Origin: Desulfarculia bacterium
GTDB taxonomy: Bacteria > Desulfobacterota > Desulfarculia > Adiutricales > JAGVGV01
Direction of reading: 5' to 3'
DNA length: 64,000 nt
Assembly: GCA_963662445.1 (NCBI GenBank)
Contig: OY759590.1
Coordinates: forward strand, 2,560,249 to 2,624,248
The notes under the pieces: model-generated
Seen by the model: only the letters and a program-made list of their open reading frames with translations
Databases searched by the model: none
Told to the model about the DNA's origin: nothing
Shown: positions 17,304-34,353 of the stretch, piece by piece
Numbering within the stretch: the first letter of the stretch is position 1
How the letters are laid out: each line of letters opens with the position of its first letter
Translations under genes and position numbers: made by a program

Positions 17304-17308
17304 AGGTA

Positions 17309-18497: not shown

Positions 18498-21400
18498 ATG
18501 AAAATACTTTTTATAAGTCCTCGGCCTTTCGGTCTGATGGGGACTCCCGGAACATATCTTCTTGTGGAAGCGTATGCGCAAAATGCTCATGTCTGTGTCA
18601 TTGCCAATAAGGACCATGACGATTCGTTCAGAATCGTGCATCCTCCATCCTCCCGTGTTGAATTGCATGAGATATCTTTTAGCAATGCTGAATATCTTCT
18701 CGACATACTGAGAATTGTCCAAATATTTAGACCTGATATCGTAACAATCGGGAGTCACCCTGGATGGACATTCATTCTTGATTACCTAAAAGCGCATTAT
18801 TCAGCAGCGAAGTATGTCTATGACATAAAATCTCCTCTTCTGGCTCCGGGCAATTCGAGGAGGAGCCTTGAAACTGCAAAAAGAGGTAGAATATCTGCGA
18901 AGAATGTTGATCTGGTCCTGACCCGTTGCCTCGAAGATGTGCAGACATGGATTCCCGAATGCTCAAAGCCTGTCCTGGTCTACCCTTTGGGAGTAAAACT
19001 GACGAATTATGAGCCTATAAAAATAGGTGAGGGTTTCTCCAGCTGCACGAGATTTGTTTATGTGGGAGCCATTGCTCCACTGAGGATGCTTGAAAAACTT
19101 CTTGAATTTATAGCCGCATTGCCTTGGAAGATCAGAAAGGTCGTCAGGTTTGATTTTTATGGATCGGGCCCTGCTGAATCAAGTTTTGTAAATACAATAG
19201 ATGAACTTCGCCTTAATAAGATTGTATCGTATAATGGTTGTGCCGATACAGTCCAACTGCCCAAATTACTGACAAATTATGAAGCTGGATTAGCTTGGGT
19301 GCCCCACGAACTATATGATACGGCTCCATCTTTGAAGATAGTTGAGTATACATCTGCAGGGCTATTACCGATTGCTATGGATACTACCGCGCACAAGCGT
19401 TTTGCGGATAATGGCTTCCATGTATCATTCTTCTCTGATACAGCCAATTCCTTTGCCTGTGCAATTGGAAAAGCCGTTATCGAAGGTTACAATGCAGAAA
19501 AAAGATCCGAAAATATGGATAGAATTAGGAAGTATGATTGGTCTAACATTGTAGAAAGCTATATATTTCCGGCTTTTGTTGATCTATTAGACACGAATGC
19601 GATGATGACAAGCCAAAGGGAAAATGAGCCGGTTGACAAGAGTCACCATGCTTTCACGTATAGCGATCAGAGTATTGTTGTTCGCAATAATTGGCAACAT
19701 GATTTGCACAATATGGAAATTGAGAAAAAGAGAATACTGTTTATTGGTCCCCCTGGATTTGCTGAAAAGATATGGGATACTAGGGCAAGATATATCATTC
19801 CAGATTTGTTTGATAGTATTCCTTCGAATTGGGATGTATATTTTCTTACTGGAGAAGTGCCGGAATATGCGTGGGACGCTATTAATTCCCTCATTGAAAA
19901 ATATAAAATTAGACACATTGAAATAGGGCCAAAACCTAAAAGAATTTCATTCGATGAATATTGGGATTCAGAAATTGTCAAATACGCTAAATTTGTTCGG
20001 CCGGACTTCATCTCGAACATATTTGGGGCATTAAGGGCAGGTAAAGCCATTGCCCTTGCAGCAGAGGACGTAGGGGCAAGAGCAATATTGCGTGTCCCTG
20101 GGGATGAAATATTGTCGAGGGTTAACATGGGCGTATATCAAGAGAAGTCCAATAAATACATTGTGGATATGGAGCGGCAGCAGATTGCTTATGATCTGTC
20201 CGACGCCATCATTGCAATGTCGCCGTGGGAAAGAGAGCGCATATGCGGATTTCTCGAAGAAGATAAACATGCCAAAGTTCATATCTGTATGAGAGGTGTT
20301 GATACAGATATTTTCAAACCAAATTACGCGAAGGAAAACAATACTAAACAAATAAAACGTTTTCTTTATCTTGGAAGAATGTCTAAGGAAAAAGGCTACG
20401 ATATAGTTGAGGAAGCAGCCAAGATATGTTGGGAGAAGGAAAAAGATATTGAATTTACATTTGCTGGTAACTTTGGAACGAGTAAAATAGCTAACAGAAA
20501 CTATATCGGTTGGGTGGAGAGCTCCTCACTACCAGATATCTTCAGAGGTCATGATGCGCTAATACTGGTGTCACGAACGGAAGGATTTCCTCAAGTCGTG
20601 GCGGAAGCTATGGCTAGTGGATTACCCTGTATATTGTCCAGGTCGCTATTTTCCAAGATATTTAGAAACAAGGAAGATGCTTTACTGACAGAGATGAATC
20701 CGCAGGCGGCGTCAGATGCTGTATTGGAGCTGTATAACGACGTTCAATTATCTCATATGCTGGCAAAAAGGAGCAGGTTGATAGCGACGACATATATGAA
20801 AAAGGAAATATGGAAAGAAGTATACCGCGATATAATATTGGGTAATAATCAATATTCAACGAGAAAAAGACAATCTTACTATATGACCAAGTGGCATGAT
20901 TTTGGAAATGAATCCGGAATTGAAGCTGCATTTAATTGTGAAAGAATAACTAATTGCCACGCAGATGTTGCGAGAGTTACCAATAGACAAAGAGTGAAAA
21001 GTGTCACCACGAGTATGCGAAGGCAAAATACTCTCTACTCTGTTGCTGAAAAAAAATTAAAGATGTTGATGATTAGTCCGAGACCATTCGGCCTAATGGG
21101 GACTCCAGGCACCTATGAGTTAGCTGAACGTCTATCTGACTATATGGATGTATGTGTAGTTTCAAATTCAAATAAAGTAAAGAATATAGAAATTGTTCAT
21201 TCGGCCTCAAATAACATCAGATTGTACGGAATTGATTTTGCGGATAAGACAATAGTTTTTGCTTTGATGAAGGAGATTCTTTCTCAATATAGGCCAGATA
21301 TTGTATATCTTCTCTGTGGCGCTGATTGGTTTTCGTTTTTGGATTATTGTAAAAAAGAAAGGCCTAGTAGTAAGTATGTATTGGACATCAAATCTCCATA

Positions 21401-24035
21401 TTTCCATTCCCAAAAGATAGAACGTCATGAGTCGCTTAAGAAAAATGGTGATTCAGAGTCAAACAAACTTGACTTGATATTGAGTTATTCCGAAGAGATA
21501 ATTGACTCATGGTTTAGTAAAAGGGATGTTAATAGCATAGTATATCGTCTTGGAATTGAGAAGGCAAACTATAGTCCTAAAAAAATAAATACAGCGACAA
21601 TTCCTTGCATGAAAATTGTATATATTGGGTCTATACACCCAAAAAGGAAAATGCATCGCCTTTTGAATTATATTGAGTCATTACCTTTACAGATAAGGGA
21701 AAAGGTGCGTTTTAGCTTTTTCGGAAGCGGCCCGGGAGTTGATGATCTCTGTAAAGACATTATTAAGAAAGGGCTAAATAGAAATGTCTCATATGAAGGA
21801 TGCCTGAATGGATTAGATCTGGCAAATAGATTGAGTGAATATGATGCAGGATTGGCATGGGTTCCACATGAAATATTCAACTATTCTCCATCTTTAAAGA
21901 TATTGGAATATATGGCAGCAGGTCTTTGTCCCATAGCGATGGATACAGTTGCCCATAAACGATTGGCGGAGCAAGGTTTTGAAATTAAATTTTTTACGGA
22001 TTCAGCAGAATCATTCGCCGCTACTATCGGTGAATTAGTTAAGGGTGGTTTTTTGAATGTTCAAAGGGAAAACAATCTGAAATTGATTGATAGGCATGAT
22101 TGGGACAATATTGTGAAAGAAGAAATATTGCCAGTATTGATGGGTGTGATGGGAAAGACGGAAAAGAATATAAGAAAAAAAGACGATAAGACTAAACAAA
22201 GTGATGTCAATATGCGAACAGAAGATAACTGGGGTTTTGCAAATAATATGAACAGAAAACATGAAATCGATATAGAAAAAACATATTTTTGGGACTTGTC
22301 ATATAATATTGAGAAACACAAAAGGATAACAACCGGAAAAACACGCATAGCCGGTATAGTTGGAGAGAGACTTTTTAGCAGCATAAGATACGATGCGGAA
22401 TTACTGGTATTAACACCAAATAATTGGGAACAGATACTTAAATATGGAAAACCACGCTTTATATTGATGGAATCGACATGGTCTACGGTAACTGGTCATT
22501 GGTATATGGCACAGAGTATAAAGAATAGTGAACAAGAAGAACTATTAGAAATATTGGATCAGGCAAAGAAGCGTGGAATACCCAGCGTCTATTGGATAAC
22601 ATCTGATCACTCAATGCACGATCATTTTAGCGATTTTGCTAAGCATTTTGATTTTGTCTATTGCGCAGACATGAAAGAAATAGGTTTATTTAAAAGGGAT
22701 GGTATAAACGCGGCGATATTACTTCCTGCGGTTCAACCGGTTATTTTTAATCCCATACATAATTTCAATCAAAATAAAATAAGGAAATCAGGAATCCTTT
22801 ATGATGGCTGGGTCGATCTTTTTAGGTACCCGGAACTTGGTAATATATTGAGTAAAGTTAAAAAAGATAATCTAAATATATATCAATCTGACTTGATGAT
22901 GTACAGAACACAAGTTAAGCACACAGCTAACAATTTGGCTCAATCAATTAGAGGTACAATAACAAAAAGTGCTTTGCCATATCTTTTAAGAGACGCAGAG
23001 ATGTATATATCATTTGAGAAAACAGCCTTATCAAAGACACAAAAATTATGGTCCTTATTGGAGGCTGCTGCGTCTAGACTACCCTTAGCTCATTTAGGCA
23101 AAATAGAAGTTGATGATCCTCGCAATAAACTTGTAAAACAATTTGATAATGAATTTGAATTTATTCAATTTGTAAATCAGGAGAGTGAGTTCAGTTTTGA
23201 AATAGAAAAAAATAGGCATCTGGCCTGGAGAGAAACATTTTACAAGCATATCATGGCCAAACGTATCCAGCAGATATGTAATGACATAGGTATTGAAGAT
23301 GAATGGCAGGAATTTCCTAAGGCTACTTTAGTTACCGGAACAATGAGACGAACATTATTGCCTAAGTGTTTTGAACAGTATGAGAATCAAGTATACCCTA
23401 ATAAAGAGTTGATTCTTATCTATAATGGCAATGTTAGTGATGTCGAAGAATATAAGAAACTCTATTCTGATAGAGATGATATCATAATTGAGGCTATTTC
23501 AACTGATTTTTCCGTTGGAACAGTGTTAAATTATGGAATAATCAGGGCAAGGGGAGACTATTTTTTTCGTATTGATGACGATGACATATATGGTCCCAAT
23601 TATATTTTGGATTCATTGTTATATCTAAGGGGAACCGACGCTGATATATTTGGTAAAAGAGCCTCATATTTTAGCTTTGAAGATGATCCTGCAGTGTATC
23701 TAAGAAATAAGTTGTTACCAATAATACAAAAATTTCCATCAAAAAGACTTCATGAGAGTCATGATACGCTTATAAGTGGCTGTAGTTTTGGAGGAAAAAC
23801 TGAGTATTTAAAAAGACATAGATATCCTGACGGTATACATGCTTCAGCTGATACTGCAATCATTGATTCACTTAAGAGGCAAAAACAAGATGTTGAATGC
23901 CTAATTATGGATAGCTTAAACTTGGTTGTAAAAAGAAATAGCCGGCTTAATAGTCATACATGGAGAATGGACAATAATAAAATAAAGGACGAGGCAATAA
24001 AGGCAACTGAAAATTGCTCTGATGTCATATTTTAA
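18498..24035 (+). CDS. 1845-aa five-module glycosyltransferase: GT4-like A1, canonical GT4, GT4-like A2, CgeB/DUF3880-like, GT2
   Basis: Single uninterrupted ORF. A1 spans aa 1-365 and A2 spans aa 856-1215; they share MISPRPFGLMGTPGTY, RPDIV, KYV.DIKSP, GSGP, AGLAWVPHE, SPSLKI.EY..AGL.PIAMDT.AHKR. The GT4 module (aa 411-781) has LGRMSKEKGYD..SRTEGFPQVVAEAMASGLP. The C-terminal GT2 has YPNKELILIYNG..FFRIDDDDIYGPNY. Confidence 0.85.
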   Translation: MKILFISPRPFGLMGTPGTYLLVEAYAQNAHVCVIANKDHDDSFRIVHPPSSRVELHEISFSNAEYLLDILRIVQIFRPDIVTIGSHPGWTFILDYLKAHYSAAKYVYDIKSPLLAPGNSRRSLETAKRGRISAKNVDLVLTRCLEDVQTWIPECSKPVLVYPLGVKLTNYEPIKIGEGFSSCTRFVYVGAIAPLRMLEKLLEFIAALPWKIRKVVRFDFYGSGPAESSFVNTIDELRLNKIVSYNGCADTVQLPKLLTNYEAGLAWVPHELYDTAPSLKIVEYTSAGLLPIAMDTTAHKRFADNGFHVSFFSDTANSFACAIGKAVIEGYNAEKRSENMDRIRKYDWSNIVESYIFPAFVDLLDTNAMMTSQRENEPVDKSHHAFTYSDQSIVVRNNWQHDLHNMEIEKKRILFIGPPGFAEKIWDTRARYIIPDLFDSIPSNWDVYFLTGEVPEYAWDAINSLIEKYKIRHIEIGPKPKRISFDEYWDSEIVKYAKFVRPDFISNIFGALRAGKAIALAAEDVGARAILRVPGDEILSRVNMGVYQEKSNKYIVDMERQQIAYDLSDAIIAMSPWERERICGFLEEDKHAKVHICMRGVDTDIFKPNYAKENNTKQIKRFLYLGRMSKEKGYDIVEEAAKICWEKEKDIEFTFAGNFGTSKIANRNYIGWVESSSLPDIFRGHDALILVSRTEGFPQVVAEAMASGLPCILSRSLFSKIFRNKEDALLTEMNPQAASDAVLELYNDVQLSHMLAKRSRLIATTYMKKEIWKEVYRDIILGNNQYSTRKRQSYYMTKWHDFGNESGIEAAFNCERITNCHADVARVTNRQRVKSVTTSMRRQNTLYSVAEKKLKMLMISPRPFGLMGTPGTYELAERLSDYMDVCVVSNSNKVKNIEIVHSASNNIRLYGIDFADKTIVFALMKEILSQYRPDIVYLLCGADWFSFLDYCKKERPSSKYVLDIKSPYFHSQKIERHESLKKNGDSESNKLDLILSYSEEIIDSWFSKRDVNSIVYRLGIEKANYSPKKINTATIPCMKIVYIGSIHPKRKMHRLLNYIESLPLQIREKVRFSFFGSGPGVDDLCKDIIKKGLNRNVSYEGCLNGLDLANRLSEYDAGLAWVPHEIFNYSPSLKILEYMAAGLCPIAMDTVAHKRLAEQGFEIKFFTDSAESFAATIGELVKGGFLNVQRENNLKLIDRHDWDNIVKEEILPVLMGVMGKTEKNIRKKDDKTKQSDVNMRTEDNWGFANNMNRKHEIDIEKTYFWDLSYNIEKHKRITTGKTRIAGIVGERLFSSIRYDAELLVLTPNNWEQILKYGKPRFILMESTWSTVTGHWYMAQSIKNSEQEELLEILDQAKKRGIPSVYWITSDHSMHDHFSDFAKHFDFVYCADMKEIGLFKRDGINAAILLPAVQPVIFNPIHNFNQNKIRKSGILYDGWVDLFRYPELGNILSKVKKDNLNIYQSDLMMYRTQVKHTANNLAQSIRGTITKSALPYLLRDAEMYISFEKTALSKTQKLWSLLEAAASRLPLAHLGKIEVDDPRNKLVKQFDNEFEFIQFVNQESEFSFEIEKNRHLAWRETFYKHIMAKRIQQICNDIGIEDEWQEFPKATLVTGTMRRTLLPKCFEQYENQVYPNKELILIYNGNVSDVEEYKKLYSDRDDIIIEAISTDFSVGTVLNYGIIRARGDYFFRIDDDDIYGPNYILDSLLYLRGTDADIFGKRASYFSFEDDPAVYLRNKLLPIIQKFPSKRLHESHDTLISGCSFGGKTEYLKRHRYPDGIHASADTAIIDSLKRQKQDVECLIMDSLNLVVKRNSRLNSHTWRMDNNKIKDEAIKATENCSDVIF

Positions 24036-24099
24036 TGAAAGATAGACAAAGACAAGGCCTTTAGCATAGCAAATTCAATAATGCAAATTGGTGAGGAGT

Positions 24100-25116
24100 A
24101 TGTTAGAATATTGTAATATATTGATTACAGGTGGCTGCGGATTTATTGGGACATCAATAGTAGATAGAATTAATAGACTGTACAGTGGAAAGAAGGTATT
24201 AATTCTAGACAATTTTGTTACTGGAACTCCAAAAGATCTGGCTGAGGTGGCAAGTTTTAAAACGGCTTCAAGCGGTGATTGGCCAACGAAAGAAGGAATA
24301 ACACTGGTCAAAGGAGATATACGTGATAAGGATTGTGTTATGCAGTGTTGTAAGGGGGTCGACTGTATTATACATCTAGCGGCGAATACTGGAGTTGGCC
24401 CATCAGTTCAAAATCCATCGTTGGACATGGAATGCAATGTTGTCGGAACATTTAATTTATTGGAGGCGGCTAGATTAAATAATGTAAAAAAGTTCATATT
24501 TGCTTCTTCGGGAGCACCTGCCGGGGAAGTTGAACCACCTATACACGAAGAGTTACCTCCACATCCTGTATCACCCTATGGAGCGAGTAAATTGGCTGGA
24601 GAAGGATACTGTTCAGCTTACTACAGAACTTTTGGGTTGCGAACAATTTGTTTAAGATTCGGCAACGTATATGGTCCCAGGTCAAAGAAGAAGTCAAGCG
24701 TGGTGGCAAAATTCATCAGGCAGGCCTTGGCTGGAGAAGAGTGCGTTATATTTGGCGATGGAACACAAACCAGGGACTTTATTTATATTGATGATTTAGT
24801 AGGTGCTGTCTTGCTGGCAATGCACAAGGATGTGGGGGGGGAGACTTTTCAAATTGCCACAGGCCTGGAATGTACGGTAAGTGAGATTGCAGAATTAATT
24901 CAAAAAAAGATGCATAAAAACGGAATAGATATGAAAATTGTTTATGATAATCCGCGAATGGGAGACGTAAGACGTAACTTTGCAGATACAACAAAAGCCA
25001 AAATTGGTTTAGGCTGGACTGCTGCTGTGCCACTGGAAGAGGGATTAGAGAAAACACTATCATACTTTTTAGATATTGCTGTTAGTGACCAGAACAAGGA
25101 GATGACCGATGACTGA
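24100..25116 (+). CDS. NAD-dependent sugar-nucleotide epimerase/dehydratase (extended SDR)
   Basis: ILITGGCGFIGTSIV and the YGASKLAGE catalytic YxxxK. Substrate is not assignable. The start is ambiguous (24088 TTG or 24100 ATG). Confidence 0.85.
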   Translation: MLEYCNILITGGCGFIGTSIVDRINRLYSGKKVLILDNFVTGTPKDLAEVASFKTASSGDWPTKEGITLVKGDIRDKDCVMQCCKGVDCIIHLAANTGVGPSVQNPSLDMECNVVGTFNLLEAARLNNVKKFIFASSGAPAGEVEPPIHEELPPHPVSPYGASKLAGEGYCSAYYRTFGLRTICLRFGNVYGPRSKKKSSVVAKFIRQALAGEECVIFGDGTQTRDFIYIDDLVGAVLLAMHKDVGGETFQIATGLECTVSEIAELIQKKMHKNGIDMKIVYDNPRMGDVRRNFADTTKAKIGLGWTAAVPLEEGLEKTLSYFLDIAVSDQNKEMTDD

Positions 25117-26410
25117 TAACCAGACTAAAGATGTAGTTGTGGTATTAAGCGCCGGCAGGTCTGGTACGTCTTTACTTATGAATGTCATGAACAGGTTGGG
25201 GATGGAGCTTTCCGAGGAGATGATTCCTGGAAGGTACGGAAATCCGGATGGTTATTTTGAAGATTCTGAAATAGTTCAGATACACCAGAATTTAATTAAA
25301 GATATTTCCGCAAAGGCTAATCTGCCACTCCCAGATAACTGGCTATTGAATGAAAAGGTAAAAAGTGCTGTACCCAAACTTAAGACGATATTGAAAGATC
25401 GTCTTCAAAAATGTAACGGAACATGGGGGTTTAAAGATCCTCGTACTTCGGTGTTGTTGCCTTTATGGCTAAGAGTTTTCAATTCCGCAGTAGTAAATCC
25501 GATTTTTGTCCTGGCCATAAGACATCCAGCGGCAATGGTAGTTTCAATGCGCCGCATCGTAGACAATGACGATACGGTAACAGAACTACAATGGCTTCAC
25601 CGCACATGTGAAGCTCTGTATAACACTTCCGGCGATTGCTACATCGTTCATTATGAAGACTGGTTTAGAAGAGGGGAAGAAATAGCTGGTGAGCTACTTA
25701 ATTACACCGGTCTGGAAAATAGTTTTGGGGAAAAAGACATTAGCGATGCGCTGCGGGGACTGATAAAAGACAATTTGAACCGTTCAGTCTATGAAGATTA
25801 TGACATACAGAACAAGTATGTAGCTATGTTATATGAGAGCCTACAAAATTGTCGGGGCAAGGATTTTGATCGTTCGAAGTTGATGGAGACCGTGAAAGAA
25901 TGTCGGAATGCTATTCACGGTTTTAAGGGGTGGTACCAATTGGCTCTGGAGGCCGGGAGCGATAAGAACCAGGAAAACGTTAATAAGATAAAGAAACTAG
26001 AAAATGAGCTAAAGGACAAAGAAGAGAAGCAATCCGCCAGAATAGAAGAACTTGAGATTGATGTTGCTAAAAGTGTATCAAATTGCAATAGTTATTTACA
26101 TAAGATAAAGGATCTGGAGGATGAAGTCTGCCATTTGAGAATAAGAGTTACAGCCCTGGCTTTGGCCTCTACTAACAACGCCTCTGAAAGTGGTAGACAG
26201 TCCAAAGGTATTGTAAGCGGCTTAGACTATGAATTGAACAGGTGTCGTTGCGAGTTGCGGGCTATGAGATCTTCAGTCACCTATAGAACAGGCTATTTCG
26301 TTGTAAAAGCGTTCTCTAAGCCGGGGAAAAACACAATTTTGCTTCCTTACCGGCTGATCCGGATTTTTCTAAAACACCTGGCCACACGAAAACGGAAAGT
26401 AATAACTTGA
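25109..26410 (+). CDS. sulfotransferase-family protein with C-terminal coiled coil and basic amphipathic tail
   Basis: 5'-PSB-like VVLSAGRSGTSLLMNVM, 3'-PB-like GFKDPRTS and AIRHPAAMVVSM. Residues about 285-350 show heptad-like K/E/L-rich sequence (NKIKKLENELKDKEEKQSARIEELEIDVAK..IKDLEDEVCHLRIRV). The last ~40 aa are basic and hydrophobic. Confidence 0.72.
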   Translation: MTDNQTKDVVVVLSAGRSGTSLLMNVMNRLGMELSEEMIPGRYGNPDGYFEDSEIVQIHQNLIKDISAKANLPLPDNWLLNEKVKSAVPKLKTILKDRLQKCNGTWGFKDPRTSVLLPLWLRVFNSAVVNPIFVLAIRHPAAMVVSMRRIVDNDDTVTELQWLHRTCEALYNTSGDCYIVHYEDWFRRGEEIAGELLNYTGLENSFGEKDISDALRGLIKDNLNRSVYEDYDIQNKYVAMLYESLQNCRGKDFDRSKLMETVKECRNAIHGFKGWYQLALEAGSDKNQENVNKIKKLENELKDKEEKQSARIEELEIDVAKSVSNCNSYLHKIKDLEDEVCHLRIRVTALALASTNNASESGRQSKGIVSGLDYELNRCRCELRAMRSSVTYRTGYFVVKAFSKPGKNTILLPYRLIRIFLKHLATRKRKVIT

Positions 26411-26468
26411 TATCTATGGGATATGAAGGTCAAAAAGTATAGTTAGAAAAATTATAAAGGCTATCATA

Positions 26469-27251
26469 ATGCTACAACTCACACGCAATTTGCGCGATTA
26501 CCGCAACGCTTTGGTGATTCAGTTCTGGGTCAACATCAGAACAACTGTTGCTGCGACAAGACTCGGTGTCCTATGGTGGATTCTTGATCCGCTCATGCTC
26601 ATGATGATTTATTATTTTGTTATAAAGATTGTTTTTAACCGCGGCGGGCCGGGTTACCATTTTTATGCACTTTGTGGAATTGTGACATGGCAATCTTTTT
26701 CGCGATCTCTGACTCAGTGTACAAACGCACTGATTGGCAATTCTGCGTTAATTAAACAAGCTGTTCTGCCGATAGATCTTTATGTTTTGTTGCCCCCTAT
26801 TGTGCAGGCATTTTTTTATTTAATAGGTCTGGCTATAATAGCTATCTGGAACAATAATGTAGTGGGTTGGTATACTCCAACTGTTCTGGTATTGCTGATT
26901 CCGATGGTCCTTCTGCCATATGCTTTGGGGCTTTTTCTTGCAATACTGAGAACTAGATCTCCAGATTTGGGAAAATTTGTTCCTTATATATTAAGATTCG
27001 GGTTCTATTTCAGTCCTGTTTTGTACGGTCCAGAAAGAATTTATGATTTACACATACCGCAGCTATTTAAAACTTTATATTCTTTGAACCCTATGGTTCA
27101 CATCATAACTGCTGTGCGAGAAGTCTTGTTCGAGGGGCGTATGTTTGATTTGCGTCCGATATTATTGGTATCGATTGCCGCTATCTTATTAACACAGGCT
27201 GGACTTGTATTTTTCCGGCGATTTGCACCGTCAATTCCTAAGTATTTGTAA
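26469..27251 (+). CDS. wzm: ABC-2 type polysaccharide export permease
   Basis: 260 aa, six hydrophobic segments, ABC-2 (Wzm/TagG/KpsM-like) layout, immediately upstream of a Wzt-type ATPase. Confidence 0.85.
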   Translation: MLQLTRNLRDYRNALVIQFWVNIRTTVAATRLGVLWWILDPLMLMMIYYFVIKIVFNRGGPGYHFYALCGIVTWQSFSRSLTQCTNALIGNSALIKQAVLPIDLYVLLPPIVQAFFYLIGLAIIAIWNNNVVGWYTPTVLVLLIPMVLLPYALGLFLAILRTRSPDLGKFVPYILRFGFYFSPVLYGPERIYDLHIPQLFKTLYSLNPMVHIITAVREVLFEGRMFDLRPILLVSIAAILLTQAGLVFFRRFAPSIPKYL

Positions 27252-27317
27252 AATAGATAAAGTGAATATAAAATCGTCTCAAAACAATAAAGTTGACGGT
27301 TTAGCCGTGAGCGTAAA

Positions 27318-29321
27318 ATGAGTTTAATAATCGCCAGCATATTCTCCCGCAAACAGCAAGGTGCGGGGCTTATGGTTTACGATTTGACAAAATCGGAAGC
27401 CGCATATGTCCAGTTGCTCAATTTTGAGTCAATTCCCACGCGGCTTCATCAGCTACGAGGAATAAGCGTTCTGGCGGATCAGCTCTACGCCGTCGTTCCT
27501 GGCGCGTTGTTGATATTTCGTATTCAGACCAAAGAGAATGGTCCGCTTTTTATTCTCGAAAAGACTGTTGTACGGCCGGATTGGGTTTTGGGAAAGGAAG
27601 CCCAGGGCGACCTGCATGCGGTCTATGCTTCAACTAGACGCAATCGTCTTTTTGTGTCTTTCAACAGCCAGGCTGCCGTGGAAATCCTAGACCTGGATGG
27701 GAATTTTCTGGAAAGGCAATATCTTTGGGAAATCGCGCCAGATATATTCCCTTTGCCGACAAAGATTGCGGGGAATAGTTTTCAATTCGGCATAATCAGG
27801 CATATTTTCGAGGCGCCCGACGGGGAAGTCATGCTGACAACAGCCCTGTTGAACGGTACTCTGGAAGGCGGAATTATAAGTTACGATGACGGCCGGATGG
27901 TTCTGGGGCCGACACCGCAGCCTCCTCACGGGGGCTTGTTTTTTCAGAACAGACTTGCTTATTGCGACATACGCCAAGCGGAAGTCCCGGTTTACAAGTG
28001 GTCTTCCGGGATGAGTATTACAGCAAACGAACCAAGCAGTGTTTTCAGACCAGAGATTACCGAAAAGCGCTGGCAGGACAGCGAGCAGGCCGTTAGAGGT
28101 ATGACCTGCATTGACGAACATCTGCTATGCGGCGTTTTCTATCTTGGCAAACCTAAGAAAAAACAGATTCCCCCAAGAATGGTCGAGTTCGACCTGGATG
28201 CGGGCAAACAGATCAGGGAACACTTCCTGCCCTCTTTCAAGGGGCTGGAAGAGCCGATGATCTATGCGCTGTTGCCTGCTTCGCCGGAGATTGAAGCTGC
28301 CGCGGCAATGTATGCGGAGCCGAGATATTTCCGTGGAGATGAGCCGTTTGCACCCGAGTTGCTAAAACAGCCACAAGAAATGCCTGAGCAGTCTCCGGAA
28401 AAAGGTGCTGTTACTCCTGTGGAAGCCCAATCAGGCGTAAAGGAAAACACTAAATCAGAAGAGACAGAATCTGAAATCCAGGCTCCATCTGATTTGCATT
28501 GCGAAGCCCCGCAGTTACCGGTTATTGAAAGAAAGCCAACAGTTGTACTTGATGGAGTGAGCGTGAAGTTTGTCCGCTCGGGAAAGCTGCTGGCGAAATT
28601 CAGTAATCAGCTCCGAAAGAAGAGAATCCATTGGGCGTTGCGCGGCGTCTCCTTGTCAGTCTTCGAAGGAGAGGTTCTGGGTATCATCGGGCGTAATGGA
28701 TCTGGAAAGTCCACTATGTCGATGGTCTGCGCCGGGGTTTACCAACCAGATGAGGGAAAAATCACGGTTCAGGGGCGGGTTCAGCTTCTGGCCTTGGGTG
28801 TTGGTTTTAAAAATGAACTCAGCGGTCGGGAGAATGTCGTCATCAGCGGGAGCTTGATGGGGTTGAGCCGACGTGAGATATTGGCCAAAATGGACGAAGT
28901 TGAAGAATTTGCGGAACTGGGGGATTTTATGGATGAGCCGGTCCGCACTTATTCCAGCGGCATGCGCAGCCGTCTGGGATTCGCTGTGGCCACGGCGGTT
29001 CAGCCGGATATTCTCATTCTGGACGAGATCATGGCGACAGGCGACAGGGCCTTTCAGGACAAGGCCATGAATCGTATGAAGGAGATGCGCAGCCTTGCCA
29101 GAAGCGTGATTATCGTTTCCCATGCGCCGGGCCAGTTGAGAAAGCTGTGCGACAAGGTTCTATGGCTGGAGAAGGGGAGAACCGTCATGCTTGGGGAAAC
29201 CAAGGAGGTTCTCAACGCCTACGACAATTTCTGCCAGAATCCCCAGAAATGGCTCATGAGGCATCAGCAGGAAGTCGATATCCCGCCTGATGCAGGTGAG
29301 GGTTGTTCACAGACGGAGTAA
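27318..29321 (+). CDS. wzt: polysaccharide export ATP-binding protein with ~400-aa N-terminal extra domain
   Basis: The C-terminal NBD spans about aa 407-667: Walker A GRNGSGKST, signature YSSGMRSRLGF, Walker B ILILDE, H-loop VSHA (Wzt/TagH type). Residues 1-340 are a non-NBD, beta-rich domain. Residues 345-405 are a P/E/Q/S-rich linker. Confidence 0.85.
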   Translation: MSLIIASIFSRKQQGAGLMVYDLTKSEAAYVQLLNFESIPTRLHQLRGISVLADQLYAVVPGALLIFRIQTKENGPLFILEKTVVRPDWVLGKEAQGDLHAVYASTRRNRLFVSFNSQAAVEILDLDGNFLERQYLWEIAPDIFPLPTKIAGNSFQFGIIRHIFEAPDGEVMLTTALLNGTLEGGIISYDDGRMVLGPTPQPPHGGLFFQNRLAYCDIRQAEVPVYKWSSGMSITANEPSSVFRPEITEKRWQDSEQAVRGMTCIDEHLLCGVFYLGKPKKKQIPPRMVEFDLDAGKQIREHFLPSFKGLEEPMIYALLPASPEIEAAAAMYAEPRYFRGDEPFAPELLKQPQEMPEQSPEKGAVTPVEAQSGVKENTKSEETESEIQAPSDLHCEAPQLPVIERKPTVVLDGVSVKFVRSGKLLAKFSNQLRKKRIHWALRGVSLSVFEGEVLGIIGRNGSGKSTMSMVCAGVYQPDEGKITVQGRVQLLALGVGFKNELSGRENVVISGSLMGLSRREILAKMDEVEEFAELGDFMDEPVRTYSSGMRSRLGFAVATAVQPDILILDEIMATGDRAFQDKAMNRMKEMRSLARSVIIVSHAPGQLRKLCDKVLWLEKGRTVMLGETKEVLNAYDNFCQNPQKWLMRHQQEVDIPPDAGEGCSQTE

Positions 29322-29329
29322 CATTCAGG

Positions 29330-32266
29330 ATGAATTCTTTTTTGGAGATATATACCGAGGCTATCAAGCTGTTTCATAGAAGGCGCTTCGCCGAAGCTGA
29401 AAAGGCGATTCTGGCGTACAGGGGTGAAGCTGACTATTTTGCTTTGGAACATGTGGATAAACGTTCCGAGAAAAGACCTCTGGCCTCGGTTGTCATAGTT
29501 TCGAGAAAGGGCGAAGAAGGCCTGCTGCACTGTCTCGACTCACTGGAAAGAGAAAGCGAAACAGCATTTGAAACCATTGTGGTTAACAATGGCGAAAATG
29601 ACAGTGTTCTGGATAGATTGCTTTTGAGGGATATCTGCCTTGTGCAGGGTAATGCCGTTTTTACTCCTTCTGAAGGCCGGAACATCGGAGCGGCTTATGC
29701 CAGGTCGGAATTATTGATTTTTCTGGATGATGACGCCTTGGTTGGCCAGGATTTCGTAAAAAACGCCATTGCCGCTTTTAGGGCATATCCCTTTCTGGGC
29801 ATACGCGGCCGCGTCCTTCCCAAAACCAGCGAAGGCAACAATGCGGTTGCCGGCCACTATGACATCGGGGAACTCCCTATCCCCGCCGTGTTGGACACCG
29901 AAGGCAATATGGCCGTGCCGAAGGATGTTTATGAAGCCGTGGGCGGAATGAATCCTTTGATGTTCGGTTCGGAGGGGCTTGAACTTTCCCATCGGCTGTT
30001 GAAGGAATTTCCGGGCAGAGACATCTACTATTGGCCCTCCATGACCATACTTCATGATTTTGCCCAGGGCGGGCGGCTGGAAGCAAAAATGAAACGGTAC
30101 ATCTTGGCTACGGAATACTTCAATGCCATGATGCCCGACGCCTTGAAGATGAGAAAGCAGTACCTGGCCTGGATTCTTTCGAGACCGGGAACAGATATGA
30201 AGACTGACCGCATTATCGGGGAATCTGCGGGCTCCGAAGACATGGAAAAGGCGGAACTGCTGTTTCGGATTTCCCGCCTGGAAAAAGAGTTGGAGATTAC
30301 CACCAATTCATTTGCCTTGCGTCTGGGCCGTTTGTTGGGCCGGGCCTACTCTTCGCCATGGCGGGAGGGGCCGCTTCTGCCCCTGAAAATGTTTCGTCTC
30401 GCCAGGGAATGGCGGAGTGGAGGGAAGAACCTGTTCCGCGTGAACAATTCTCCCCGAACGGCCATTATGTCCATTGTGGGATCGGAGCTTCGCAATGAAA
30501 AAAATTATGCCACCCCGGGCAAGACGGAACATGTCTATGGTATTTTCCCAGCCTTCCGTCCATTGCGAAAAGGAAAACTGTCTTCTTCGCTCCGCATAGC
30601 CTGTATACTTGGCGAACATACATTCCGTTGTCTTGAACCTGACGCACACCTCTTTCCTCTTTCGGAAAACGGCTGGAAAGAAGAGATCGAGCATGCGGCA
30701 CCTCAGATGCTGCTGGTCGAATCTCTGTGGCAGGCCTCCGACGGCGGCTGGAAAAACGTGCTGGCTACAACGGATGATTGGCCGACCTCGTTAAAGGATA
30801 TTCTGGCTTACTGCAACGAGCGATCTATTCCGGCCGTTTTCTGGAATACCGAGGATGTTGCCCATTATCCATTTTTCAGGAATGCGGCCAAATACTTTGA
30901 GCATATATTCGCCATGGATGCCCGGGTGGTGAGTCTGTACAAGCAGGAGACAAACAAACCTGTTCATCACCTGCCGCCGGCGGTGCAACCGGTCTATCAC
31001 AATCCTGTTCGCTCGGCCGAAAACGAGCCTGAAGTGAAGGGGTTCACGTATCTGTTTGATGGATGGGCTGATCTGATTGAGAAGCCGGAAGATTTTTCTT
31101 GTCTGGATCAGCTCTGTGAACGCGGTCTGCACATTGTGGAATCAAGGTACCGGTTCAGAGCGAATAAACTGGACGAGAACCCTGCATATAAAAAATCCAT
31201 CATGGGGTGCCTTGACTACGAACAGTTGTTAACCGCCTGGAGATATTACCAGGTGGCTGTCATGTCGCCGACATCGCTGTCCACGCCTCTGGTCAGATTC
31301 AAACGCGCCATCGAGGCCGTGGCCTGCGGGACTCCCGTGCTGCACTTCGGCAAGACGGACTGGGAATGGCCCGCCCATGGAATTGTTCAGACCGAGAACG
31401 CCGCTGATTTCAAAGGCAAAGCGCGAGATCTGATCGAAGATAAGGCTCTCAATGGCCGTCTGTCTCATCTGGGCCGCCGGGAATTGTACTTGTCCCATAC
31501 CTATGCTCACCGTCTGAAGCATATATCTTCCGTGTTGGGCCTGCAAAACGACTGGGTTGAATATCCGAAGGCCTGCGTGATAACCCCCACCAAGAGGCCG
31601 GACCTTATCCCCGGCTGCATAGAAAAGTTCGAAGCTCAGGTTTATCCCAACAAGGAATTGATTATCATCGTCAACACCACGGATGCCGATTCGGACTCAA
31701 TCGGAAAAACCCTGGCCGGCCGCGACAATATCAAGTTTTTTCAGCTCCATCAGGAGAAAAATATAGGGGCCTGTCTGAACTACGGCATTTCACAGGCCAC
31801 CGGCGCCTACTGGTTCAAGATGGATGATGATGATTTTTATGGCAGGAACTATCTGCTGGATACGATGATTGCCCTAAGAGGCTTTGATGATTGCGTTTTC
31901 GGAAAGCCGCCCGGGTTTGTCTACTTTGAGGAGAATGACAAGATATTCAACAGGGGCGAAGGATTTGACGGAAAACACATCCAGGGCGACAAGCATGCGC
32001 CGTACATAAGCGGGGCGACACTTGGCGGAAAAATAGGGCTCGATATTGATTTTTCCGAGGAGCATCGTGCCTGCGTGGACAGCTTCTTTCTGGAGACCAG
32101 CAGCAGAAGGCGGGGCCTGCCCACCTATGCTTCGGATATTTTCAATTTCGTGGCCTACCGTTCCCGGAGTGCCGCCGACCATACCTGGAAAGTCGATCCC
32201 AGGGCAATAAAGAGACGTTCCGTGCCTTTTGCGGATGGACTTGATTTTACAAACATTATGATCTGA
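29330..32266 (+). CDS. three-module glycosyltransferase: GT2, CgeB/DUF3880-like, GT2
   Basis: The N-terminal GT2 has ASVVIVSRKG..ETIVVNNGEND..FLDDDA. The middle and C-terminal modules are colinear with aa 1282-1845 of the 18498-24035 product (RIA.I.GE, P..L.ES.W, IP.V.W.T.D, LP.AVQPV..NP; YPNKELI.I.N, LNYGI, DDDD.YG.NY). The ATG at 29330 was chosen. Confidence 0.8.
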   Translation: MNSFLEIYTEAIKLFHRRRFAEAEKAILAYRGEADYFALEHVDKRSEKRPLASVVIVSRKGEEGLLHCLDSLERESETAFETIVVNNGENDSVLDRLLLRDICLVQGNAVFTPSEGRNIGAAYARSELLIFLDDDALVGQDFVKNAIAAFRAYPFLGIRGRVLPKTSEGNNAVAGHYDIGELPIPAVLDTEGNMAVPKDVYEAVGGMNPLMFGSEGLELSHRLLKEFPGRDIYYWPSMTILHDFAQGGRLEAKMKRYILATEYFNAMMPDALKMRKQYLAWILSRPGTDMKTDRIIGESAGSEDMEKAELLFRISRLEKELEITTNSFALRLGRLLGRAYSSPWREGPLLPLKMFRLAREWRSGGKNLFRVNNSPRTAIMSIVGSELRNEKNYATPGKTEHVYGIFPAFRPLRKGKLSSSLRIACILGEHTFRCLEPDAHLFPLSENGWKEEIEHAAPQMLLVESLWQASDGGWKNVLATTDDWPTSLKDILAYCNERSIPAVFWNTEDVAHYPFFRNAAKYFEHIFAMDARVVSLYKQETNKPVHHLPPAVQPVYHNPVRSAENEPEVKGFTYLFDGWADLIEKPEDFSCLDQLCERGLHIVESRYRFRANKLDENPAYKKSIMGCLDYEQLLTAWRYYQVAVMSPTSLSTPLVRFKRAIEAVACGTPVLHFGKTDWEWPAHGIVQTENAADFKGKARDLIEDKALNGRLSHLGRRELYLSHTYAHRLKHISSVLGLQNDWVEYPKACVITPTKRPDLIPGCIEKFEAQVYPNKELIIIVNTTDADSDSIGKTLAGRDNIKFFQLHQEKNIGACLNYGISQATGAYWFKMDDDDFYGRNYLLDTMIALRGFDDCVFGKPPGFVYFEENDKIFNRGEGFDGKHIQGDKHAPYISGATLGGKIGLDIDFSEEHRACVDSFFLETSSRRRGLPTYASDIFNFVAYRSRSAADHTWKVDPRAIKRRSVPFADGLDFTNIMI

Positions 32267-32496
32267 GTGTAATCCGCGCCAAGAAGATGAATACGATTTG
32301 GGTGAGAGATGGGAGACGATAAACCGGCCAAAGAAAATGACCAAGAGGGAGCTGACTTTGGGGGAACTCGCGGCAATCTCGCGACACGGTTTGCGATATG
32401 GAAGACCCGTCCGGCTTCACCGGTCAATTACCAATCAACTAACCGATCACTCGAGTAGAAACCTCGTCTGGAATTGGACATCAAAGAAAAGGCTTA

Positions 32497-32808
32497 ATGG
32501 ACACAGATGATTTGACTGCAATGGCATGGGACGTCATCGCCCGGGCGGACCGCTTTTCTGGTGCGTTAAAAACCGAATTTGGTTCAATGGCCAGCCAGTT
32601 TCGATCCGAGGATGAATGGCTTCGAGGAGTTCGTGCCCATTTAGAAGAAATCACTGAAGATCCGGAAGGGTATGAGGACTATTGGGACCTTGAAAACGAG
32701 GAAGGAGCGTCGGCAGCCATGATCGGGAGTTGCGCGACAGAACTCAGTCTTCGAGTGGATGAAATACTTGCCACGCCTTTGAACAAGAGGGACGCAAGGG
32801 CATGGTGA
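32497..32808 (+). CDS. acidic hypothetical protein
   Basis: 103-aa ORF with ATGGTGA start/stop overlap with the next ORF. No family recognised. Confidence 0.35.
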   Translation: MDTDDLTAMAWDVIARADRFSGALKTEFGSMASQFRSEDEWLRGVRAHLEEITEDPEGYEDYWDLENEEGASAAMIGSCATELSLRVDEILATPLNKRDARAW

Positions 32809-33143
32809 TTGTAAGAATGCCAGAGCGCTTCAAGCCTTTCTTCAACCGTTACGTCGGCATCGACTACTCTGGAGCGGAGCCCCCTGATTCCAGCTTGAAG
32901 GGCCTTCGGGTCTACGAAGTCACTCGTGAATTCCTGCCGGTGGAAGTGGAGCCGCCGCTCAGCCCTCGCAAATTTTGGACACTGCGTGGCCTCACCGAGT
33001 GGCTGGCAGAACATTTAACTGAAGACGTGCCGAATTATCGTCGTGCCTACCACCTTACAACATTGTCCGATTTATGGGGTCCACCTCTGTTGAGTCTTGG
33101 CGCTTTAAAGAACCACCCCGTCAGAGTTGATTCCGCTCATTAG
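32802..33143 (+). pseudogene. hypothetical gene whose 3' part is IS-scar-derived (probably truncated)
   Basis: The N-terminal part (FNRYVGIDYSGAEPPDSSLKGLRVYEV..) looks genic. From about 33040 the frame reads through sequence homologous to the IS3-type scar (..LSDLWGPPLL). Confidence 0.3.
33040..33100 (+). mobile_element. third short IS3-type 3'-end scar
   Basis: CCACCTTA..TGTCCGATTTATGGGGTCCACCTCTGTTG parallels 12435-12490 (CCACCTTA..TGTCCAAACAATGGGGACCACCTCTTTGTG) with an internal deletion. Aligned by eye. Confidence 0.4.
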
Positions 33144-33429: not shown

Positions 33430-34353
33430 ATGACAAGAAAGACTCACAGGGCGGAAAATCCCCAACAAGTCGTTATTTACGACATGAAAACCAACCTTTG
33501 CGTCTGGAGCAGGGCTGGAGTACTGAAGCCCATGACGTGCGTCAATGCCTTTGACTGCCTGCACTGCCCGGTCGACCGTAAGATGAAGATGGAAATAAGA
33601 AACGGCAGGCTCAAGGACGGACGGGCTCTGGCCGGACGTGACTGGTTCGGCGAAATCAGGCCGCGTCCATTGGAAAACAGAAAATGCCGCCACATGCTCT
33701 CCGGCAGGGTCTCGGTAAAATACTGCATCAATGATTACGATTGCGCACGTTGCGAGTATCACCAGTTGATGATGGACGAAAACCTGGCCGAACCTCTCGG
33801 GCGGCCCGAGCAGGAGGTCGCCGGCGGCTTCATGGTTGCGCCGAACTACTACTACCATAGCGGACACGCCTGGGCCCGCGTGGAGTACGGCGGACGTGTC
33901 CGGGTGGGGCTGGATGATTTCGCAGCCCGCCTCTTCGGCCCTTTCAACCGCTTTGAACTGCCGCGCCTCGGCCAAGTGATAAAGCAGGGCGAACCTGGTT
34001 TCGGATTCATCCGCGAGGACCTGGACGCCCAGTGCCTCAGCCCCCTGGAGGGAGTTGTTGTAGCGGTCAATCCCGAAGCCAGGGAAAACGGCCGGATAGC
34101 CGACGATCCTTATGCCCGCGGCTGGCTCATGGTCATTGAGCCTCAAAAGCTGCGCCTGGGTCTGCGCAACCTGCTCTTCATGGAGGAAAGCCTTTCCTGG
34201 ATGGAAGAAGAGTCCTCCAAGCTGGTGAACTTGTTACCCGAAGAAACCGGGTTTCAACTGGCGGCCACCGGCGGTCTGGCCATCACGGATATCTTCGGAC
34301 ATTTTTCAAGTCTTGGTTGGGAACGGCTCAGAAAGGAGTTTTTAGGAACCTGA
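33430..34353 (+). CDS. GcvH-like (lipoyl/biotinyl-fold) domain protein with Cys-rich N-terminal region
   Basis: YYHSGHAWARVEYGGRVRVGLDDFAARL..GW resembles the glycine-cleavage H fold. The N-terminal 110 aa carry CxxxxCxxC and CxxC-like clusters (CVNAFDCLHCP; CINDYDCARCEYH). Confidence 0.65.
   Translation: MTRKTHRAENPQQVVIYDMKTNLCVWSRAGVLKPMTCVNAFDCLHCPVDRKMKMEIRNGRLKDGRALAGRDWFGEIRPRPLENRKCRHMLSGRVSVKYCINDYDCARCEYHQLMMDENLAEPLGRPEQEVAGGFMVAPNYYYHSGHAWARVEYGGRVRVGLDDFAARLFGPFNRFELPRLGQVIKQGEPGFGFIREDLDAQCLSPLEGVVVAVNPEARENGRIADDPYARGWLMVIEPQKLRLGLRNLLFMEESLSWMEEESSKLVNLLPEETGFQLAATGGLAITDIFGHFSSLGWERLRKEFLGT

What the first reader, a model, noticed from the sequence alone, without database searches (positions are those of the whole stretch)
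27318..29321. Wzt ATPase with inverted architecture: ~400-aa N-terminal domain instead of a C-terminal carbohydrate-binding module
Characterised Wzt proteins that recognise capped O-polysaccharides have the NBD first and a C-terminal CBM. Here the NBD occupies aa ~407-667 with almost nothing after it. Residues 1-340 form a separate beta-rich domain with repeated hydrophobic-strand / Gly-Asp turn patterns suggestive of a propeller or lectin-like fold. It is joined to the NBD by a 60-residue P/E/Q/S-rich linker (nt ~28352-28535). Together with the adjacent putative terminator, this domain is a candidate receptor for the sulfated or sulfonated chain end.
Basis: partly seen in the sequence, partly recalled or inferred. 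Interest (0 to 1): 0.65.

Follow-up and report, generated by a model that had tools for sequence, protein, structure and literature searches.

The report
Wzt exporter ATPase with N-terminal β-propeller
This polysaccharide-export ATPase has no sugar-cap-binding module at its tail; it carries an uncharacterised six-bladed β-propeller at its head, always found beside a sulfotransferase with a coiled-coil "ruler", so the propeller probably checks that the sugar chain is finished (sulfated) before export, though this is untested.

Summary
ORF 27318-29321 (+) is one uninterrupted 667-aa protein. It has a β-rich N-domain (aa 1-345), a 61-aa acidic P/E/Q/S-rich linker, and a Wzt/TagH-type ABC NBD (aa ~407-652) followed by only 15 residues, so there is no C-terminal CBM.

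With a 29-sequence alignment, AlphaFold2 models the N-domain as a six-bladed β-propeller (pLDDT 94.7). It has only generic PDB neighbours (NHL, YVTN, BtuG) and no Pfam or NCBIfam hit. More distant relatives weakly match DUF4915/TIGR03032.

The architecture is a rare but real family: 67 representatives among 1.84 billion proteins, and 38 of them are propeller-linker-NBD fusions, none with a CBM. Propeller and NBD divergence correlate (Spearman 0.78), which points to one old fusion.

In 11 of 11 loci examined, the propeller-Wzt sits next to Wzm and a homologue of the window's sulfotransferase-coiled-coil protein, which has a WbdD-like terminator layout.

A sister clade without the NBD has an invariant enzyme-like His3/Asp/Asn/Arg site. 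In the Wzt clade this site is eroded, but the arginines are kept and one is gained.

Best reading (~0.5): a tethered reader of the sulfated chain end that replaces the CBM. Rivals are a cap-processing enzyme or a docking domain. I rate it a new variant of a known kind.

The parts
27318..29321 (+). Complete ORF (667 aa plus stop): propeller-linker-NBD Wzt
   Evidence: no internal stops; full-length homologues of the same architecture
27318..28352 (+). N-terminal six-bladed β-propeller domain (aa 1-345). Blade 6 is closed by the three N-terminal strands plus strand 314-320
   Evidence: AF2 on alignment A2: pLDDT 94.7, pTM 0.93, about 26 strands. Foldseek PDB hits are generic propellers. Family-conserved R47, G48, W89, L99, G128, R133, W137, H204, G206, R260, G261 and P305 are all present
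28353..28535 (+). Acidic low-complexity linker (aa 346-406; 51% P/E/Q/S)
   Evidence: Linkers in the homologues are unconserved, polar and 29-121 aa long
28536..29273 (+). Wzt/TagH-type ABC nucleotide-binding domain (aa ~407-652). Walker A at nt 28689-28715, signature 28950-28964, Walker B 29010-29027, H-loop 29115-29123
29274..29318 (+). 15-residue C-terminal tail; no carbohydrate-binding module
   Evidence: All 38 NBD-fused homologues end 183-211 aa after Walker A
26469..27251 (+). Wzm ABC-2 permease, the partner of the ATPase
   Evidence: Pfam ABC2_membrane, NCBIfam Wzm/KpsM models. It is 42-61% identical to the Wzm upstream of (adjacent or near) every propeller-Wzt homologue examined
25109..26410 (+). 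Sulfotransferase (PAPS P-loop GRSGTS) plus coiled coil plus conserved C-terminal segment; a WbdD-like terminator layout
   Evidence: Pfam Sulfotransfer_3 and coiled-coil-type hits at aa 247-389. Homologues are present in all 11 propeller-Wzt loci
24088..25116 (+). SDR epimerase/dehydratase, conserved directly upstream of the sulfotransferase in most loci
18498..24035 (+). 1845-aa multi-module glycosyltransferase (GT4 x2-3 plus GT2), the probable polymerase
   Evidence: Homologous giant GTs occur in the P0004 and P0010 loci
29303..32266 (+). 987-aa GT2 / GT1-like / GT2 protein overlapping the wzt stop by 19 nt
   Evidence: Its homologue follows wzt in L006

Best explanation
The gene encodes the ATPase subunit of a Wzm/Wzt-type ABC exporter for an undecaprenyl-diphosphate-linked polysaccharide. 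The usual C-terminal cap-binding CBM is absent. Its role is taken by an N-terminal six-bladed β-propeller held on a flexible ~60-residue tether.

Proposed mechanism:
- The giant glycosyltransferases polymerise the chain in the cytoplasm.
- The sulfotransferase-coiled-coil protein (a WbdD-like 'ruler' terminator) sulfates the non-reducing end and stops elongation.
- The propeller captures the sulfated terminus in an arginine-lined pocket at the mouth of its central channel. Its tether lets it search the cytoplasmic space.
- The propeller hands the chain to Wzm/Wzt, so only finished chains are exported.

Shown here: the architecture, the fold, the family, the absence of a CBM, the intact ATPase motifs, and the invariable genomic partnership with the sulfotransferase and Wzm.

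Inferred: that sulfate is a terminal cap, that the propeller binds it, and where the pocket lies.
For: 1. Capped-glycan systems are defined by a coiled-coil terminator plus a CBM at the C-terminus of Wzt (PMC11231755 and PMC9445017). Here the coiled-coil terminator-like sulfotransferase is present, but no CBM exists in this Wzt or in any of the 38 fused homologues. No Wzt_C-type domain was found in the other cluster ORFs scanned.
2. Co-occurrence. All 8 propeller-Wzt loci, including the window, contain a sulfotransferase: a homologue of the window's ST-CC in seven and Sulfotransfer_3 genes in the P0010 locus. In the reverse direction, 3 of 3 full-length ST-CC homologues sampled lie beside Wzm and a propeller-Wzt. 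A short sulfotransferase without the coiled coil has neither. Gene order is conserved: SDR, ST-CC, Wzm, propeller-Wzt, GT.
3. The fusion is stable and co-evolving. Pairwise identity of propeller versus NBD correlates (Spearman 0.78), and the fused proteins form one clade.
4. Residues at the start of the inner strand of blades 1-5 form an invariant His3/Asp/Asn/Arg site in the non-NBD sister clade. In the Wzt clade that site is eroded (H100 in 6/35, H162 in 9/35, D205->G in 23/37). R47, R133 and R260 are kept (>=88%) and N161 becomes Arg in 27/35. This is the pattern expected when an enzyme scaffold becomes a binder of an anionic ligand.
5. The linker is polar, unconserved and variable in length, as expected of a tether.
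Against: No binding or export data exist, and the polysaccharide structure is unknown, so a terminal sulfate is itself a prediction.

The window protein and its closest relatives (P0001-P0003) still have H100, H162 and H204, so catalysis is not excluded.

The conserved residues are shared across loci with different glycosyltransferase sets. That would fit a common ligand such as a sulfated sugar, but equally a protein partner.

The non-NBD relatives are fused to methyltransferases, glycosyltransferases and a different sulfotransferase, sometimes in the position that a terminating enzyme occupies in WbbB.

Linker length does not track sulfotransferase (ruler) length (n=9, Spearman 0.25, p=0.52).
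Confidence: 0.5

Rival explanations
1. The propeller is an enzyme. It modifies or processes the chain terminus (or another anionic substrate) immediately before export, so the Wzt protein couples a last chemical step to transport.
For: The sister clade has an absolutely invariant His100/His162/His204/Asp205/Asn161/Asn179/Arg47/Arg133/Arg260 set (21/21) at the inferred central channel, typical of a metal-dependent propeller enzyme. The window protein retains all three His. A three-His zinc lyase propeller (PAL, 3fvz) is among the structural and weak profile hits. In P0042 the propeller sits at the distal end of a coiled coil in front of GT modules, the position of the terminating enzyme in WbbB (PMC11231755).
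Against: In the Wzt clade Asp205 is mostly Gly, Asn161 is mostly Arg, and His100/His162 are lost in most members. A conserved catalytic function across the clade is therefore unlikely. The window protein itself has R161 and G205. No similarity to any characterised enzyme family reaches significance.
Confidence: 0.2
2. The propeller is a protein-protein docking platform. It recruits the transporter to the sulfotransferase-coiled-coil / polymerase complex and sets the stoichiometry of synthesis and export, rather than binding the glycan.
For: β-propellers are common interaction platforms. There is strict co-occurrence with ST-CC, which has a conserved C-terminal segment. The propeller is found fused to different partner enzymes in the sister clade. 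In uncapped systems the transporter:synthase ratio sets chain length (PMC11231755).
Against: The conserved residues are charged or aromatic and point to a central pocket inherited from an enzyme site. This is more typical of small-ligand binding than of a protein interface. No interaction data exist, and multimer modelling could not be run.
Confidence: 0.15
3. The propeller senses a small anionic metabolite (for example PAPS/PAP or a nucleotide sugar) and gates ATPase activity according to precursor supply.
For: An arginine-rich conserved pocket and a link to PAPS-dependent chemistry.
Against: There is no nucleotide-binding motif and no precedent among Wzt proteins. A long flexible tether is an odd design for an allosteric sensor.
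Confidence: 0.06
4. The N-terminal region is a separate product, or the fusion is an annotation or assembly artefact.
For: The exact 667-aa protein, and an M19-start variant, are not in the protein collection although four neighbouring proteins are. One homologue's gene call starts at the M19-equivalent residue.
Against: The reading frame is uninterrupted. 38 independent homologues from different samples have the same fusion. N-termini align at M1, and residues 3-10 are a modelled blade strand. Composition is uniform across the gene, at 47-56% GC.
Confidence: 0.02

Closest known systems
Wzt with C-terminal carbohydrate-binding module (E. coli O9a / K. pneumoniae O3, O12; Raoultella terrigena; Aquifex aeolicus WzmWzt)
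   Same: Same NBD family (best PDB and NCBIfam matches). Adjacent Wzm permease. Sits in a glycan cluster with a coiled-coil terminator-like enzyme. An accessory domain is attached to the NBD.
   Different: The accessory domain is N-terminal, not C-terminal. It is a ~345-aa six-bladed β-propeller, not a ~150-aa jelly-roll that dimerises by strand exchange. It is joined by a long disordered tether rather than packed under the NBD hinge helix. The predicted cap is sulfate, which is not among the caps listed in the papers read here (methyl, methylphosphate, Kdo).
WbdD / WbbB coiled-coil chain terminators (molecular rulers)
   Same: The neighbouring 433-aa protein has a catalytic domain, a coiled coil and a conserved C-terminal segment, as in WbdD. 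It is invariably linked to the transporter.
   Different: Its catalytic domain is a PAPS-type sulfotransferase (Sulfotransfer_3), not a kinase/methyltransferase or a Kdo transferase. Its terminator function is predicted only.
Pfam DUF4915 (PF16261) / NCBIfam TIGR03032, uncharacterised
   Same: 19 of 67 family members (12 of 29 for TIGR03032) match these models over most of the propeller. They probably share a fold and ancestry.
   Different: All matches are below the curated cut-offs (<=30 bits against 35). The window protein does not match at all. No paper in the searchable library mentions either family, so membership would add no functional knowledge.
Six-bladed NHL / YVTN / BtuG-type β-propellers, including the three-His zinc enzyme PAL
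   Same: The predicted fold matches (Foldseek probability 1.0, TM ~0.5-0.6). There is a weak profile hit to the TRIM2 NHL domain (E=0.06).
   Different: Only 8-14% identity, and no Pfam NHL/Kelch match at threshold. The similarity is at the level of the general fold only.
Propeller 'readers' of anionic marks (e.g. the WD40 domains of Cdc4/Fbw7 binding phosphodegrons through top-face arginines); recalled from my own knowledge
   Same: Conserved arginines are arranged around the central channel on one face of a propeller, as proposed here for sulfate recognition.
   Different: Unrelated sequence, different blade number, and a protein rather than a glycan ligand. This is an analogy only and was not tested.

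Membership tests
Wzt/TagH-type ABC exporter ATPase | ABC NBD with Walker A, signature, Walker B and H-loop, most similar to Wzt/TagH | tested here: met
   Pfam ABC_tran at 80 bits. TagH / galactan-Wzt NCBIfam models at E 1e-58 to 1e-64, below the equivalog cut-offs. PDB TagH/TarH/Aquifex Wzt at E 1e-53 to 1e-58. All motifs present
Wzt/TagH-type ABC exporter ATPase | Adjacent ABC-2 (Wzm) permease in a glycan-biosynthesis cluster | tested here: met
   Wzm at 26469-27251, flanked by glycosyltransferases and SDRs. The same pairing occurs in 10 other loci
Capped-glycan (terminator plus CBM) ABC export systems | Carbohydrate-binding jelly-roll module at the C-terminus of Wzt | tested here: not met
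   Only 15 residues follow the NBD, and there is no Wzt_C hit. This is true of all 38 fused homologues
Capped-glycan (terminator plus CBM) ABC export systems | Terminating enzyme carrying an extended coiled coil | tested here: inconclusive
   The sulfotransferase at 25109-26410 has coiled-coil-type hits at aa 247-389 and a conserved C-terminal segment. Homologues are labelled with coiled-coil Pfams. Terminating activity was not tested
Capped-glycan (terminator plus CBM) ABC export systems | Export depends on the terminal cap being recognised by the transporter | not testable with these tools
   Requires genetics and biochemistry
DUF4915 / TIGR03032 | Match to the family model at its curated threshold | tested here: not met
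   No hit for the window N-domain even at E<=1. Relatives score 12.7-30 bits against a cut-off of 35
Six-bladed β-propeller fold (NHL/YVTN-like) | Six four-stranded antiparallel blades around a central axis | tested here: met
   AF2 model at pLDDT 94.7. 24 blade strands can be assigned, with N/C-terminal 'velcro' closure. The top 50 Foldseek PDB hits listed (672 at E<=1e-3) are propeller proteins. Blade assignment is from the secondary-structure string, not from coordinates

The most novel reading that the evidence does not exclude
The propeller is not merely a passive reader. In the window's sub-clade, which retains His100/His162/His204, it is a still-active metal-dependent enzyme descended from the DUF4915-like family. 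It would chemically edit the sulfated chain end, for example by removing or transforming the cap, as an obligatory step coupled to ABC export. That would be a catalytic proof-reading checkpoint with no precedent in glycan export.
Probability: 0.12. Interest if true: 0.85.

Novelty: new variant of a known kind. Interest (0 to 1): 0.62.

Why it matters
In ABC-transporter-dependent glycan assembly, the only known way to couple chain termination to export is a C-terminal jelly-roll CBM on Wzt that reads a methyl, methylphosphate or Kdo cap.

This family suggests a second, independently evolved solution. It uses a different fold, at the other end of the protein, on a flexible tether. It is paired with a sulfotransferase terminator, which would make sulfate a new cap chemistry.

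It also gives the first functional handle on the uncharacterised DUF4915/TIGR03032 propellers. It shows an apparent enzyme-to-reader transition. It gives censuses that use the CBM as a search hallmark a reason to look again.

One genome assembly labelled as a strain rather than a MAG (Desulfonatronum sp. SC1, GCA_003046795.1) carries the system, so it may be directly testable if that strain is in culture.

Tried and rejected
- Single-sequence AF2 of the full protein failed (pLDDT 33).
- The word-indexed homologue search found nothing with the N-domain and only 5 non-NBD relatives with the profile. The exhaustive HMMER search was needed.
The family does exist in at least one NCBI genome assembly (Desulfonatronum sp. 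SC1), so those negatives reflect the motif-based search, not absence.
- A profile search of PDB sequences gave only marginal NHL hits.
- No papers mention DUF4915 or TIGR03032, and none combine sulfotransferase, coiled coil and chain termination. The 2019 census by Mann, Kimber and Whitfield could not be read.
- Tether length against ruler (sulfotransferase) length showed no significant correlation.
- The second 667-aa ORF at 59908-61911 is an unrelated dCache chemoreceptor.
- P0064's fused sulfotransferase is not homologous to the window's beyond the P-loop.
- The C-terminal β-rich domain of the ~500-aa sister class has no Pfam or PDB match.
- Promoter and terminator scans around the cluster were at background level, and there were no Rfam hits.
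- The source organism could not be named. Neighbouring proteins map to an unnamed 4.83-Mb NCBI/ENA contig.
Full report
**Observation.** The ORF at 27318-29321 (+) is a single uninterrupted 667-codon frame. ATG 27318 is the first start after the in-frame stop at 27294-27296. Pfam and NCBIfam place an ABC nucleotide-binding domain at about aa 424-652, with the best models being TagH and galactan Wzt/RfbE. The closest solved structures are TagH/TarH and Aquifex aeolicus Wzt. They align from their residue ~33-36 to query 438, which puts the start of the NBD at about aa 403-408. Walker A (458), signature YSSGM (545), Walker B ILILDE (565) and the H-loop (600) are intact. Only 15 residues follow the NBD, so there is no C-terminal CBM. 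The intervening 61 residues (346-406) are acidic, 51% P/E/Q/S and strongly hydrophilic. No segment looks transmembrane.

**The N-domain is real and folds as a propeller.** It has no Pfam or NCBIfam hit, and a word-indexed search found nothing. An exhaustive phmmer scan of 1.84 billion cluster representatives found 67 relatives, 27 of them at E<=1e-30. Single-sequence AlphaFold failed (pLDDT 33). With a 29-sequence alignment of N-domains (A2) the model reached pLDDT 94.7 and pTM 0.93, and it is all-β. The strand order gives six four-stranded blades. Blade 6 is made of strand 314-320 plus the three N-terminal strands (3-10, 15-22, 27-33). This also supports M1 as the true start, as does the alignment of the homologues' N-termini. 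Foldseek against the PDB returns only generic propellers (YbhE, BtuG, NHL of TRIM2/3, YVTN, nidogen, PAL) at TM ~0.5 and 8-14% identity. A profile search of PDB sequences gives only a marginal NHL hit. More distant family members weakly match DUF4915/TIGR03032, below the curated cut-offs. No paper in the library mentions either family.

**The architecture is a conserved family.**
- 38 of the 67 representatives have Walker A and signature motifs downstream of the propeller.
- In all of them the layout is a propeller of ~330-345 aa, an unconserved polar linker of 29-121 aa, and the NBD. Only 183-211 residues follow Walker A, so none has a CBM.
- Clustering on the propeller alone separates a Wzt-fused clade from a non-NBD clade of 21 sequences. 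The Wzt-fused clade holds 31 fused proteins, two probably truncated calls, and one fused outlier that clusters apart.
- Pairwise identity of propeller and NBD is strongly correlated (Spearman 0.78).
- This indicates one old fusion that has evolved as a unit.
- Public annotations call these proteins only 'ABC-type polysaccharide/polyol phosphate transport system ATPase subunit' or 'ATP-binding cassette domain-containing protein'.

**Genomic context.** In the window the gene order is: 1845-aa multi-GT, SDR epimerase/dehydratase, a 433-aa sulfotransferase with a coiled coil and a conserved C-terminal segment, Wzm, propeller-Wzt, and a 987-aa multi-GT.

I recovered seven further propeller-Wzt loci: L002 and L003, and the loci of P0010, P0008, P0004, P0012 and P0003. 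Six contain a clear homologue of the window's sulfotransferase-coiled-coil protein (31-42% identity, often over the full length including the C-terminal segment) and a 42-61% identical Wzm. The P0010 locus, for which no DNA was available, carries Sulfotransfer_3 genes.

In the reverse direction, three full-length ST-CC homologues chosen from a separate search all lie in the order SDR, ST-CC, Wzm, long Wzt. They come from Desulfonatronum sp. SC1, a JGI metagenome and a Desulfocapsa MAG. An HMM of the propeller confirms the domain in each of those Wzt proteins. A short homologue lacking the coiled coil (Limnospira) has neither an ABC transporter nor a propeller nearby.

The count is thus 11 of 11, with no counter-example.

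**What the literature says the partnership means.** In capped ABC-transporter-dependent systems, a terminating enzyme with a coiled-coil ruler adds a cap. [quoted passage not shown] The coiled-coil protein is described as a characteristic marker of the strategy (PMC11231755; PMC9445017). The present clusters have the marker, with a sulfotransferase as catalytic domain, but no CBM. The only accessory domain on the transporter is the propeller. This is the core argument that the propeller is the functional replacement of the CBM.

**Clues from residue conservation.** The family-wide conserved residues are R47-G48, P87-E88-W89, L99, D122, G128, R133, L136-W137, G184, G192, P202, H204, G206, R260-G261, P305 and P313. 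The window protein has all of them, or conservative D/E swaps.

Aligning the blades shows that R47/G48, L99/H100, R161/H162, H204/G205 and R260/G261 occupy equivalent positions at the start of the innermost strand of blades 1-5. By the standard geometry of propellers they would ring one mouth of the central channel.

In the non-NBD clade this ring is invariant in 21 of 21 sequences: R47, H100, N161, H162, N179, H204, D205 and R260, plus W89 and R133. That pattern is typical of a metal-dependent propeller enzyme.

In the Wzt clade the ring is eroded or remodelled. H100 is kept in 6/35, H162 in 9/35 and H204 in 22/37. D205 becomes Gly in 23/37, and N161 becomes Arg in 27/35. R47, R133 and R260 stay at >=88%.

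The simplest reading is an enzyme scaffold turned into a binder of an anionic group, which fits sulfate. The caveat is that the window protein and its nearest relatives (P0001-P0003) still have all three histidines, although with R161 and G205/S205. Residual catalysis therefore cannot be excluded.

**Sister-clade fusions.** In the non-NBD clade the propeller occurs in several forms:
- alone;
- with a ~150-aa β-rich C-terminal domain that has no Pfam or PDB match;
- fused to a methyltransferase (P0051);
- fused to TPR plus methyltransferase (P0053);
- fused to a coiled coil plus an unrelated sulfotransferase (P0064);
- fused to a coiled coil plus GT1-like and GT2 modules (P0042). This layout mirrors WbbB, with the propeller where the terminating enzyme sits.

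One such gene lies in a Wzx-type polysaccharide cluster. These fusions tie the whole superfamily to the cytoplasmic steps of glycan assembly. They keep the enzyme hypothesis alive for the sister clade.

**Mechanism and ranking.**
- Tethered reader of the sulfated chain end that replaces the CBM: ~0.5.
- Cap-processing or other enzyme: ~0.2.
- Docking platform for the ST-CC/polymerase complex: ~0.15.
- Metabolite sensor: ~0.06.
- Artefact or separate product: ~0.02.

A test of one prediction of the tether idea was negative or inconclusive: linker length did not scale with ruler length (n=9).

**Novelty.** The NBD, Wzm and the capping logic are known. An N-terminal propeller as the accessory domain, the complete absence of a CBM, and a sulfotransferase as the ruler-bearing terminator are not described in anything I could search or read. 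I could not read the 2019 census by Mann, Kimber and Whitfield. It may list sulfotransferase terminators, but it used CBMs as a hallmark. I therefore rate this a new variant of a known kind, of solid interest to the glycan-export field.

**Loose ends.** The exact 667-aa protein and an M19-start variant are missing from the protein collection, although four neighbours from the same 4.83-Mb contig are present. I have no explanation beyond a different gene call in the source record. The source organism could not be named. The nearest named relatives of the module are Desulfonatronum and Desulfocapsa.

Noticed in passing
window 8000-27300 versus 27300-33000: There is a sharp composition step in the wzm-wzt intergenic region. 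The genes from ~8 kb to wzm are 34-43% GC apart from a ~52% stretch at 12-14 kb, whereas wzt and everything downstream are 47-57% and the flanks reach 63%. The cluster looks mosaic even though the gene order SDR, ST-CC, Wzm, Wzt is conserved in other organisms.
   Followed up: partly
proteins P0020, P0027, P0036, P0041, P0045, P0069 and others (alignment A5); locus L001 10001-11527: The non-NBD sister clade of the propeller has an invariant His100/Asn161/His162/Asn179/His204/Asp205/Arg47/Arg133/Arg260 constellation (21/21), which suggests an uncharacterised metal-dependent enzyme. Many members carry a ~150-aa β-rich C-terminal domain with no Pfam or PDB sequence match.
   Followed up: partly
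proteins P0042 (1045 aa), P0053 (1129 aa), P0051 (586 aa), P0064 (481 aa): Sister-clade propellers are fused to a coiled coil plus GT1-like plus GT2 (a WbbB-like layout with the propeller in the terminator position), to TPR plus methyltransferase, to Methyltransf_24, and to a coiled coil plus an unrelated sulfotransferase.
   Followed up: partly
window 27318-29318; neighbours 18498-24032, 16116-17300, 25109-26407, 26469-27248: The exact Wzt protein (and an M19-start version) is absent from the 15-billion-protein collection. Four neighbouring proteins are present, all on one unnamed 4.83-Mb NCBI/ENA contig. One homologue (L010) is gene-called from the M19-equivalent residue, which clips the first propeller strand.
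   Followed up: partly
window 8985-10343 and 10316-11893 (+): Two overlapping ORFs of 452 and 525 aa in the lowest-GC, T-rich part of the cluster (AT skew about -0.15 to -0.17) have no Pfam hit. They may be integral membrane proteins of the glycan pathway.
   Followed up: no
window 13872-15998 (+): [quoted passage not shown] This hints at a periplasmic modification step in the same cluster.
   Followed up: no
loci L002 1304-3619, L003 12287-13453, L009 14292-16790, L011 17815-20169: Several propeller-Wzt clusters also encode TagF-like CDP-glycerol glycerophosphotransferase domains, often fused to GT2, right next to the transporter. The window's cluster has a GT2 / GT1-like / GT2 protein at that position instead.
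   Followed up: no
window 59908-61911 (+): A second ORF of exactly 667 aa is an unrelated dCache methyl-accepting chemotaxis protein. The equal length is a coincidence.
   Followed up: yes
window 33430-34353 (+): A 307-aa protein carries a glycine-cleavage H-protein (lipoyl) domain only in its middle (aa 141-242). That is unusually long for a GcvH.
   Followed up: no
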